Below, piece after piece: positions 47,513 through 50,952 of a stretch of 64,000 nucleotides of DNA. Source of the DNA: Tolypothrix carrinoi HA7290-LM1 (GTDB lineage: Bacteria > Cyanobacteriota > Cyanobacteriia > Cyanobacteriales > Nostocaceae); assembly GCA_019358935.1 (NCBI GenBank), contig JAHHIK010000025.1:15717-79716 (forward strand), written 5' to 3'. The notes below the pieces were generated by a model, which was not told where the DNA came from, made no database searches, and saw only the letters and a list, made by a program, of their open reading frames with translations. Both the position numbers and the translations under genes were made by a program. Position 1 is the stretch's first letter; every line of letters begins with the position of its first letter.

Positions 47513-47864
47513 TTGCATAAATCAAAGCGCCAAGGCTTAACAATTGTTAGGTCTTGGCGCTTTAAATATCTTGAGTTTTTTTAACTTTGGGGTCTTTAAA
47601 ATTTGGTTGACCCCATTGAAATTTATGGTTTGATATTCAGGGTCTTTATATTGGCTGACCCCGTTTGAAGTATTATTAGTTTCTACTGAAAATCTCAAGT
47701 TTTCAGATTTCCTAATAATTTCTTAATTTTTTCTGTATATATGTTTCTGATTATAGAATTATGTTAAATTAGTTAACTAAATAAGACATCTGTCACCAGA
47801 TATAAAAGGTAAATCTTGCAAAAAGGGAGAATTTCTCCCCTAAGAAGCTATTCGTTCTACTTAT

Positions 47865-48134
47865 TTATGAGCGCTTTTGCCTACGCTGTTCCCATCGCCA
47901 AAGGAATACCATTAAGGTAACGACTCCTACCTGAAGTGCTAAGTTAGGCAAAGCGCTATCAACATCGCGTCCAGCAAGCAGTTGGGAAAAAAAGACGATC
48001 GCGCCGATGAAACCAGAAGCACCACAAGCAATATATATAAATTGCCGCAAGCCGCGATAGGGGGCTGCCATTTCTGCTTTGAGACGGGCGTATTGTTCTG
48101 AGTTAACGCGATTTTTGGGATTTTGTTGTACCAT
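47865..48134 (-). CDS. DUF3493 (LPA1-like) small membrane protein
   Basis: RLKAEMAAPYRGLRQFIY..SG.IG; LPNLALQVG. Confidence 0.82.
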   Translation of the reverse strand: MVQQNPKNRVNSEQYARLKAEMAAPYRGLRQFIYIACGASGFIGAIVFFSQLLAGRDVDSALPNLALQVGVVTLMVFLWRWEQRRQKRS

Positions 48135-48168
48135 GACTTTATTAGTGTTATAATTTAGAATGGCTTTT

Positions 48169-48240
48169 GCCGATGTGGCTCAGTGGTAGAGCACTCGATT
48201 CGTAATCGAGCGGTCACGGGTTCAAATCCCGTCATCGGCT
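48169..48240 (+). tRNA. tRNA-Thr(CGT)
   Basis: GCCGATG acceptor / CATCGGC, D arm GCTCAGTGGTAGAGC, anticodon arm CTCGA-TTCGTAA-TCGAG, T arm ACGGGTTCAAATCCCGT. Confidence 0.97.
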
Positions 48241-48287
48241 TTAATAAAAGTATTGTTGAATAGTTAAAGTTTTACACATATTGTACA

Positions 48288-49703
48288 GTAAACTACCTAC
48301 ACCGACCTGAGTACAGGTACGGTGTAGGCTTTTAGTAGCCCAGAAGAGTCTGTGCTGAGATTACAGTACAAACCGTTCGAGCCTCCAGGCTGGTTTACAG
48401 ACAGCCCCAATAATGCAATCATCTTTGCTCCGTTCAAATCCGCGTCACAAGATAATTCACAATTGCCGCACTTGAACAACTTTTGCGACCGTAACCCAAT
48501 GTGTAGACATTGATGGCACGTTTGACTCGTGTAGGCAGGGGGGACGGCAACAACTTCTACGCCGTCCCTCAACCCTTTGTATTCCAAAAACATCCGCAAC
48601 TGGTAGAACGCCCACGAGTTACTTCTACGGCGCTCTGTCTTGTTTCGTGGTTTTTGATTTGTCCTTTCACGAATACCAGTTAAGTTCTCAATGGCTACAA
48701 GAGCCTGCTCGTGCTTGGCTTGCTGAATGATTGTCTTAGAAATATTGTGGTTTACCCACGATTGAAATCGTCTCTCGCGCACGGCAGTCGCTTCAAGTCG
48801 GCAAAGCCGCCCAACGCGCTGCCTCCCCGATAGCCGTACCAAGACTTGCCGACATCTACGCCGACTAGAAATGAGTGCGTGTGGAAGCTTTTTTTTGGAG
48901 AGAGGCTCTTGTCTTGCTATATTTATCTCTGGTTTCGGTTAACTGTTTCCCGCTCCACGAGTTTCCATTGCTGGTTACGGCAATGTCGCGCCGCCCAAAA
49001 TCAACCCCAATAACTTTATTGGTTGGTTGCGGATCAGGAACTTCATCTTTTAATTGAATGTGGATGTAGTACTGACCATCGCGGTGTTTACATAATTGAG
49101 CAGAAGTCGGTTTTCTGCCCTTGAGTTTGCCACGTTGATAGTTACCAGCATCTATCTTGACGTGTTCCCGACCTTCTAATGTGGTCAGGCTAACCGTCCA
49201 ATCTTTTTCCCTGAATGCAAAAATTCTGGCATCATAATCGGCAGATGTTGGCTTAAACGCCTTAACGGGTTTTCCTGCTCGTTTAGCTCTAACAGCTAGG
49301 TTGGCGCTCAACCCAAATTTGGCTCTCAAGTCTTCGTAAACAACGTTTTGAATAGTTGTCTTACTGGTTATCTGCGGCTTGATAACTTCGTTTGTGTAGT
49401 TACAAGCAGCAGCAAAAGCATGAAGAACTTTTTCTAGCTTTTCCGACTGCATTGGCATAGGGTTGAGTTTGCTTTCCTAGCGTCAGTACTTGTTCCATGA
49501 GTTCGACCTACTCACTTGTGACTATAATTATAGACTACAATTCTTCGTTTTGTGTTTCCGGAGATTGTTAAAAACTTAACTATCCCCACTCCCTCAACAA
49601 CCTACGGTTGTTATTGGTCGAGGGATGTTGCGTTTTTAACCCGCAATACAAGCTCGCCACTGAACGGAGTACCGTTACAGTGGGAGCCTCCTTGCGGAAA
49701 TAG
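48288..49703 (-). mobile_element. tnpB-only IS200/IS605-family element inserted within the Tn7-like left end
   Basis: removing it restores TGTACA|GTGACTAATT; no TSD; subterminal hairpins with TACT loops at both ends; boundaries ambiguous by 2 bp. Confidence 0.82.
48297..49498 (-). pseudogene. tnpB: RNA-guided endonuclease TnpB, frameshifted
   Basis: MEQVLTL start; VIGVDFG (RuvC-I), AIENL (RuvC-II), CHQC/CGNC zinc finger, DADLNGA (RuvC-III); frameshifts near 49475 and 48870; 45-bp repeat insertion. Confidence 0.88.
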
Positions 49704-50291
49704 GTGACTAATTATTTGTCGTCGGTAACAGATTAATGTCGTTGTGACAAATTATTGTCATAAAACTAGTAATTCGTTTCCATATGTATTGGTGACAAAT
49801 TATTGTCATCTTTTGTGAAAAGCAACAATTTTATATAGAGCTTAGATAGATTTAAATCCCTATTATAAGCTTTTGAATTCAAAAAACTCTTTAAAGCAAT
49901 CATGCAAATTTAAATATATATTGTCATTGCGAGTGTAGCGTTCGCACATGAAGGAGCCGGATAGTAGAGAAGCGTCCCGAAGGAAAGCGATCGGAAGTTC
50001 CTCAAACGTTTGTTCGATGGCTACGCGAAAGCGATCGCGCTTTAACAGCGCCAACACCAGCAAAAGTCTGTACAATTTGATTATCTAACACGGGCGCGAT
50101 GGCGAAACGCCCGCTGGAAGCGATCGCTCACAATCACAAAGGTAAAACTACGCGGTAGCAAGCGGTGAACTTTGCGGGTGAGAAACGCCATTGAGTAAGA
50201 TTTACCGCTACCTTGAGTATGCCAGAAAACTGTGTTACAGACAGCAAGAACGGGGTAGTATTATTTGTATGGATTTTTGGGGTTTGTGAAA

Positions 50292-50753
50292 ATGACAGCA
50301 CCTCAACCAATAAAATCTCTGAATTCTCCTCTTTACGACCAAGATTTTTATCTGTGGATAGAGACGACTGCAAAACAATTAAAAGAAGGCAATTTTGCTG
50401 AAGTTGATTTAGCAAATTTGATTGAAGAGATTGAATGCATGGGGAGAAGTGAAAAAAGAGCGTTAAAGAGTAATTTAGTAGTTGTTTTAATGCATTTATT
50501 GAAATATAAATATCAGCCATCTCAACGTACTAATAGTTGGTTATCTACTATATTTTAACATCGGCAGAGACTTGAAGAATGTTTAACGGAGAGTCCTAGT
50601 TTAAACAACTATTTGCCGGAAGTATTTATAAATTGTTATCAAAATGCTAGAAAACAAGCAGCTATAGAAGCTGGTTTGTCCCTTCCTACTTTTCCGGTTG
50701 AGTCTCCTTTTACTATTGATGAATGTCTGGATGAAGATTTTTTGCCAGAGTAA
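50292..50753 (+). pseudogene. DUF29 family protein with a single nonsense codon
   Basis: LYDQDFYLW, DLANLIEEIE.MGRSEKR, HLLKYKYQP; TAA at 50556-50558; the frame continues HRQRL..SPSL..FPVESPF..FLPE*. Confidence 0.85.
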
Positions 50754-50952
50754 TTCAATGTTATTTGCCAGAAGCGCGGGAGGAGTAAGTCACGGGCTTC
50801 ATTAAGGCTATTATTATATTTTTTTAAACATTCAAGCCGGACAACAATTTGTCACAATGACAAATAATGTGTCACTGTACACATATTGTCGCGCTCAGTT
50901 GCGCCGTCAGATTAAAAGGGGTTATAAGAACGAAGCCGCAATTAAGCAGGCT

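What the first reader, a model, noticed from the sequence alone, without database searches (positions are those of the whole stretch)
48282..49722. TnpB IS inserted 6 bp inside the transposon terminus; its guide would begin with the conserved end motif TGTACA
Seen: the IS separates TGTACA from GTGACTAATT, breaking the left end. On the IS strand the 5' flank is ..GTCAC and the 3' flank is TGTACAATATGTG. The intact right end also reads GTCAC-TGTACA. Known: IS200/IS605 elements insert 3' of a short motif without TSD, and the TnpB guide comes from the 3' flank. Inference: TCAC is the target motif, so CAST termini could be recurrent landing sites. Insertion immobilises the CAST, and a TnpB guided from here would have a 6-nt seed matching any similar end. 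That suggests an IS-versus-CAST conflict and possibly a reason the tnpB was inactivated.
Basis: partly seen in the sequence, partly recalled or inferred. Interest (0 to 1): 0.72.

Follow-up and report, generated by a model that had tools for sequence, protein, structure and literature searches.

The report
Broken TnpB element inside transposon end
A small jumping gene landed at its usual four-letter target, which here lies in the tip of a leftover larger transposon; it looks like a one-off accident rather than a fight between the two elements.

Summary
The junction is real. A 1416-bp tnpB-only IS200/IS605-type element (48288-49703, minus strand) splits TGTACA from GTGACTAATT with no target duplication, and run contigs bridge both joints. 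TCAC is the family target: 11 of 13 other left junctions. The conflict reading is not supported. The host element is a 1184-bp V-K-type CAST remnant with no tns, cas12k or array, and the genome has no Cas12k or V-K TnsB. No second insertion at this position was found: 0 of 7 other altered ends among 166 terminal sites in 389 genomes, 0 of 40 other IS ends followed by TGT, 0 of 120 GTDB ends, 0 in metagenomes. TCAC+TGTACA occurs 12 times in the genome, 11 in ordinary host DNA; the right end matches 6 of the first 12 guide bases, while a tested TnpB needs about 12. All three shared tnpB lesions also occur in a second copy at an unrelated site, one also in another genus. The guide would match the restored left junction: the known donor-joint role. 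Moderate enrichment is not excluded. Side oddity: identical frameshifts recur in copies only 81-86% alike.

The parts
48169..48240 (+). tRNA-Thr(CGT), attachment locus of the remnant; a GTT at 48220-48222 lies 59 bases before the left end (possible Cas12k PAM, inferred)
   Evidence: PAM-to-end range 46-82 nt in PMC9938897 passages
48277..48281 (+). left copy of 5-bp target duplication CATAT
48282..48287 (+). TGTACA, outer 6 bp of the transposon left end; on the IS strand the first 6 bases of the predicted guide (16-mer from 48287 down to 48272)
48288..49703 (-). tnpB-only IS200/IS605-type insertion sequence, 1416 bp
48288..48332 (-). IS right end: guide tetramer AAAG (48329-48332), hairpin (48296-48328), terminal TTAC
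   Evidence: AAAG/TTAC is the IS608 guide/cleavage pair (PMC3201880 passages)
48297..49498 (-). tnpB pseudogene; RuvC D, E, D motifs retained (near 49000, 48687, 48440); +1 replacements at 49473-49477 and 48870-48874, 45-bp in-frame repeat insertion 48781-48825, 33-bp in-frame deletion near 49288
49653..49703 (-). IS left end: hairpin 49653-49686 with GAGG (49687-49690) at its foot
49704..49807 (+). inner left end of the V-K-type transposon: four TnsB-site-like repeats at 49704, 49725, 49744, 49792; its first bases are the TCAC target on the minus strand
   Evidence: 88-92% identical to intact left ends at tRNA-Thr(CGT), two with CRISPR repeat-end motifs
50292..50753 (+). DUF29 cargo pseudogene, premature TAA at 50556-50558
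   Evidence: a relative reads GAG there
50840..50881 (-). transposon right end, two TnsB-site-like repeats, intact TGTACA terminus
50882..50886 (+). right copy of target duplication CATAT

Best explanation
Ordinary nested insertion. A V-K-type CAST homed behind tRNA-Thr(CGT) (shown: ends, duplication, empty alleles; homing inferred) and is now a 1.2-kb remnant. A non-autonomous tnpB-only IS200/IS605 element, moved by a TnpA in trans (inferred), inserted 3' of its normal TCAC target; the terminal TnsB site of these transposons contains TCAC six bases from the tip, so the right-end RNA guide would start with TGTACA (target shown; RNA not shown). The guide's only full match is the IS-free left junction itself, so an intact TnpB would have done its known job: cut the empty allele and keep or spread the IS at this one site (inferred from published mechanism). 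The tnpB later decayed by processes that also hit copies at unrelated sites (shown). Today neither element can act from this locus.
For: TCAC at 11 of 13 other left junctions. No second insertion at this position:+28+29 (166 terminal sites, 389 genomes), 30+33 (0 of 120), 42+43+44 (0 of 40 others), 37 (0). No Cas12k, no V-K TnsB, only one TniQ, in another Tn7-like element. Lesions shared with G000:C34 and, for one, G151:C53. Remnants without this IS at the same tRNA in G008 and G009 and at another tRNA in this genome. Donor-joint targeting: 10.1101/2023.03.14.532601 passages. IS nesting in Tn7-like elements is common: PMC8649781 passages.
Against: Under a uniform model only about 0.003 such hits (0.02 if 15% of TCAC sites are tolerated, an assumed figure) are expected in 389 genomes, so even one case is a rare event; it is the discovery case, picked after the fact. 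0 further cases in 165 sites still allows up to about 1.8% of ends (95% bound, my arithmetic), far above the null. The 158 A-preceded sites were counted, not read one by one. The order of IS arrival and CAST decay is unknown.
Confidence: 0.85

Rival explanations
1. The IS was the killing blow at this one locus: it entered a complete CAST, broke the left end, an intact TnpB drove the broken allele through the chromosome copies, and the core genes were deleted afterwards. A local cause, with no general preference for ends. This overlaps with the best explanation and differs only in the order of events.
For: The guide perfectly matches the intact left junction by construction. dN/dS about 0.09 against all relatives means the tnpB lineage was functional until recently. 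The inner left end is still 88-92% like intact ends.
Against: Remnants arise without this IS (G008, G009, G000:C6, L052/L053, L060). No allele shows the order.
Confidence: 0.3
2. One reading: TCAC-family elements land on CAST termini more often than chance and use a TGTACA guide to bind or cut other ends; self-damage selected for loss of tnpB.
For: Low chance expectation. Dead TnpB binds TAM sites with little seed requirement (passages), so binding to the right end is possible. The IS sits in the strand whose 3' end is transferred during transposition (inference from recalled Tn7 chemistry).
Against: No second case. TAM-driven binding gives no preference for ends among 46,148 TCAC sites, and 11 of 12 seed-matched sites are host DNA. 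Right end mismatches guide positions 7-11. Lesions are not specific to this site. No CAST machinery left in the genome to oppose.
Confidence: 0.06
3. The element is moved by an IS607-type serine recombinase, with AC as the shared 2-bp core, rather than by a Y1 TnpA.
For: AC closes both the target motif and the right end. No tnpA is carried by any full-length copy examined.
Against: Both ends carry hairpins. The tetramer at the hairpin foot covaries with the terminal motif: AAAG with TTAC, GAAG with TCAC. An end with the same stem lies in a Y1 tnpA-tnpB locus of this genome (L008).
Confidence: 0.07

Closest known systems
IS200/IS605 family, tnpB-only (IS1341-group label recalled); IS608, ISDra2, ISGst elements
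   Same: Subterminal hairpins, insertion 3' of a short motif, no target duplication, tnpB running into the right end, guide from the 3' flank (PMC3201880, PMC8612924, 10.1101/2023.03.14.532601; passages).
   Different: Target is TCAC, which in ISGst2 is the element-encoded right motif (TTCAC), not the target; here the right end is TTAC, which is the IS608 target. tnpB is broken. No ISfinder comparison could be run.
Type V-K CAST (ShCAST/AnCAST kind)
   Same: TGTACA termini, TnsB-site arrays, 5-bp duplication, left end behind a tRNA at a PAM-compatible distance (PMC9938897 passages), DUF29 cargo.
   Different: No tnsB/tnsC/tniQ, cas12k, tracrRNA, array or recognisable anchor spacer; 1184 bp; left end split.
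TldR (nuclease-dead TnpB repressors)
   Same: Shows that TnpB folds can act by binding alone (search listing only).
   Different: Here the catalytic D, E, D motifs are kept but the frame is broken twice, so no full-length protein; IS ends are intact.
IS elements nested in Tn7-like transposons
   Same: About 30% of Tn7-like elements carry ISs (PMC8649781 passages).
   Different: Those are described as cargo insertions, mostly IS3; an insertion within the terminal bases was not seen in the passages read.

Membership tests
IS200/IS605 (tnpB-only) | tnpB homolog | tested here: met
   PF07282 above cut-off; NF040570 guided_TnpB 111 bits on the C-terminal piece; intact 400-aa relatives
IS200/IS605 (tnpB-only) | subterminal hairpins at both ends | tested here: met
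   DNA folds of -15.6 and -15.3 kcal/mol; no shuffle control was run
IS200/IS605 (tnpB-only) | insertion 3' of a fixed 4-5 nt motif, no target duplication | tested here: met
   TCAC at 11 of 13 other left junctions; twin copies L014/L042 diverge right after TTTAC; removing the IS leaves the consensus end seen in 101 of 120 ends
IS200/IS605 (tnpB-only) | guide tetramer at hairpin foot matches the cleavage motif | tested here: met
   right end AAAG/TTAC equals the IS608 pair; GAAG/TCAC in sister ends; the base-by-base rule for left-end GAGG is recalled
IS200/IS605 (tnpB-only) | mobilised by a Y1 TnpA | not testable with these tools
   none in cis; 7 PF01797 matches in the genome; cross-activity unknown
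IS200/IS605 (tnpB-only) | right-end RNA expressed, TnpB TAM equal to the insertion motif | not testable with these tools
Type V-K CAST | Tn7-like ends with TnsB-site arrays and 5-bp duplication | tested here: met
Type V-K CAST | left end behind a tRNA, related to V-K left ends | tested here: met
   88-92% to 8 ends, 7 at tRNA-Thr(CGT), 2 with repeat-end motifs (repeat motif recalled)
Type V-K CAST | tnsB, tnsC, tniQ | tested here: not met
   none between the ends; best genome hit to V-K TnsB is 24-29%
Type V-K CAST | cas12k, CRISPR array, anchor spacer | tested here: not met
   NF038191 no match; no repeat-end motif and no 9-mer shared with 48206-48260; tracrRNA not searched with a dedicated model
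TldR | intact frame with inactivated RuvC | tested here: not met
   two frameshifts, catalytic motifs retained
IS607 | serine-recombinase tnpA | tested here: inconclusive
   no transposase in any copy examined; NF038280 far below cut-off on a half protein

The most novel reading that the evidence does not exclude
TCAC-targeting TnpB elements are terminus parasites of V-K CASTs: the invariant TCAC six bases from the transferred 3' end is exposed as single strand during CAST transposition, the IS inserts there preferentially, its guide then perfectly matches the intact junction, and TnpB drives the immobilised allele through all chromosome copies of a polyploid cyanobacterium, while TAM-plus-TGTACA binding occludes other ends.
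Probability: 0.06. Interest if true: 0.62.

Novelty: new member of a known kind. Interest (0 to 1): 0.2.

Why it matters
As it stands it is a tidy natural proof that TCAC is the target of a widespread cyanobacterial tnpB-only family (352 right-end motif matches in 208 of 389 genomes, some by chance), which predicts the TAM of its intact TnpBs, and an example of how CAST remnants decay at tRNA sites. If enrichment at termini were shown, it would be a route by which an RNA-guided IS disables RNA-guided transposons. The side observation, identical frameshifting replacements in tnpB copies 81-86% alike, points to an unexplained site-specific mutation or short-patch conversion process and may deserve its own look.

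Tried and rejected
Alternative boundary with TATTT as target: rejected, related copies keep CTATT inside the left end. G016:C1 and G071:C1, where a right-end motif lies 2.4 and 11 kb from a CAST-end motif: G016 is a chance match inside a gene; the G071 stretch showed only host-type ORFs and was not studied further. L058 has a 14-bp end duplication, not an IS. Viral contigs hold no such ends. Other TGTACAGTGAC sites in the genome: 5 of 6 lack TnsB arrays. Lesion word as a dispersed repeat: not over-represented here (2 seen, 2.1 expected), 2-6 copies in five other genomes, none of 12 fetched loci matched the TnpB query. Excised (IS-free) joint: none in four runs, but these are contigs, which drop rare forms. 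X2 has no cover of 48268-49203, so its IS right joint is unknown. Earlier notes of this scan: three look-ups, nothing. Literature: searches listed no paper on IS insertion into CAST termini (listings only); PMC11656645 passages did not mention it; the 2008 small-dispersed-repeat paper is not in the library and is recalled only. Supplements were not read; the CAST table of PMC9938897 could bear on recurrence. No structure, complex or protein-database search was run, as the protein family was clear.

Full report
Observation. The plus strand reads TGTACA (48282-48287), then 1416 bp of IS, then GTGACTAATT from 49704. The other end reads GTCAC-TGTACA at 50871-50881. CATAT flanks the whole unit on both sides, and three congeners show the empty site (G001, G010, G007). 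The joint can slide by two bases because GT lies on both sides. One contig of run X1, possibly the source of this DNA, spans 47800-48488 and another 49480-49967; a low-depth contig of run X2, another study, spans 49249-50916 with 3 differences and then runs into 1891 other bases inside tnpB. So the allele is real and seen in a second sample, which is the same event, not a second one.

The IS. Both pieces of the reading frame are TnpB. Each end folds into a hairpin. The right end has AAAG at the hairpin foot and ends in TTAC, the guide/cleavage pair of IS608 (PMC3201880, passages); sister ends with GAAG end in TCAC. Left junctions were found for 13 other copies: TCAC in 11 (C34, C24, C180, L013, L014, L042, L026, L027, L189, L209, L262), TTAC in C114 and ATAC in C91. 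Copies whose left end was not found (6 of 11 loci, 27 of 30) are not counted. The 3' flanks vary freely. There is no tnpA in cis; the genome has 7 Y1 transposase matches, one in a locus with an end of the same stem type (L008).

The host element. Without the IS it is 1184 bp, with four TnsB-site-like repeats on the left, two on the right and a DUF29 gene broken by a stop. The left end is 88-92% identical to eight intact ends, seven at tRNA-Thr(CGT), two with CRISPR repeat-end motifs. A GTT in the tRNA lies 59 bases from the end, inside the 46-82 nt range of PMC9938897 (passages). But there are no tns genes, array or anchor spacer here; Cas12k is absent from the 99.65%-complete, 184-contig genome, V-K TnsB finds only a 24-29% hit, and the single TniQ belongs to another Tn7-like element. 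It is a remnant of V-K type, not a working CAST. Remnants without this IS exist at the same tRNA in G008 and G009 and behind another tRNA in this genome. Whether the IS came before or after the loss of the core cannot be told.

Recurrence. In 389 genomes of the family the terminal-site pattern matched 158 times after A (counted, not read singly) and 9 times after another base. Of the 9, one is this IS, one an internal site and seven are point variants or one-base losses of TGTACA. From the IS side, 41 right-end-like motifs are followed by TGT (all 41 read); only this one continues TGTACA or has TnsB sites upstream. The joint pattern found nothing in metagenome contigs. Against this: with 352 right-end matches (chance matches included) a uniform model expects only 0.003-0.02 hits. 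One after-the-fact case cannot show enrichment, and zero in 165 cannot exclude a moderate one.

The guide. TnpB guides are about 16 nt of 3' flank (PMC8612924, passages) and target the empty donor joint, which keeps the IS in place (10.1101/2023.03.14.532601, passages). Here the only full match is the IS-free left junction. The right end matches positions 1-6 and 12-14. For ISDra2, double mismatches in positions 1-12 abolish cleavage (review PMC13639567, passages); this family's TnpB is untested. The genome has 46,148 TCAC sites; 12 continue TGTACA, 11 of them host DNA, 6 with 7-8 matched bases. Binding with little seed is documented for dead TnpB, but it is TAM-driven and would not single out transposon ends.

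Why tnpB is broken. Against intact relatives the gene has two +1 replacements, a 45-bp repeat insertion and a 33-bp deletion. The first three are identical in the copy on contig C34, whose guide is unrelated. The two copies are as far apart as copies from other genera (dS 0.69, dN/dS 0.09), so they diverged while functional and acquired the same lesions later, in parallel or by short-patch conversion. The first lesion also occurs in a third lineage, G151:C53, identical to three metagenome contigs, 81% alike, at an ordinary site and without the other two; 2 of 389 genomes carry it. No uninterrupted copy of this subfamily is assembled in the genome, though two copies are split by a group II intron at contig ends and could be spliced. 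Conversion starting from this copy is not excluded, but nothing ties the lesions to the CAST site.

Verdict. A real, neatly placed but apparently single insertion of a known kind of element at its normal target, inside a dead transposon remnant. Shown: boundaries, target motif, remnant state, lack of further cases in the sets searched, shared lesions. Inferred: TnpA in trans, TAM, guide RNA, donor-joint targeting, loss of left-end function. Searches listed no report of such an insertion (listings only). Interest 0.2.

Noticed in passing
window 49473-49477, 48870-48874, 48781-48825; G000:C34:5832-7277; L262 (G151:C53), L258-L260: Identical frameshifting replacements, each next to a CTAG, and an identical repeat insertion in tnpB copies with dS 0.69; the first recurs in another genus. 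The lesion word is not a genomic repeat. Unexplained.
   Followed up: partly
L276 793-870 and L277 49-126 (G000:C70, C125): Two diverged tnpB copies carry a group II intron 3' end at the same codon, close to where the second frameshift lies in the window copy.
   Followed up: partly
window 49447-49458: Two ATG codons private to this copy just after the first frameshift (Thr in relatives) open a 197-aa frame that ends at the second frameshift.
   Followed up: no
G000:C24:75120-75179 and G000:C91 near 8971: 60-bp and shorter mini-elements made of just the IS left start, one hairpin and the right terminus.
   Followed up: no
window 48296-48328 versus G000:C34: The loop region of the right-end hairpin is inverted between the two copies.
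   Followed up: no
L015, L016, L017: TnpBs about as similar as the rest of the family but with a different right-end hairpin and different left ends, suggesting end swapping.
   Followed up: no
L278 (G000:C6:70300-71000): A second CAST-like left-end remnant, with TnsB sites but no terminus, right behind a tRNA.
   Followed up: no
L001/L002 (G000:C24:36400-40000): A separate Tn7-like element with TnsB, TnsC-like ATPase and a 301-aa TniQ.
   Followed up: no
window 49249, run X2 record 12: In a second sample the same tnpB is interrupted or replaced at this point by at least 1891 other bases.
   Followed up: no
L058 (G351:C422): A CAST left end with a 14-bp tandem duplication of its terminus.
   Followed up: no
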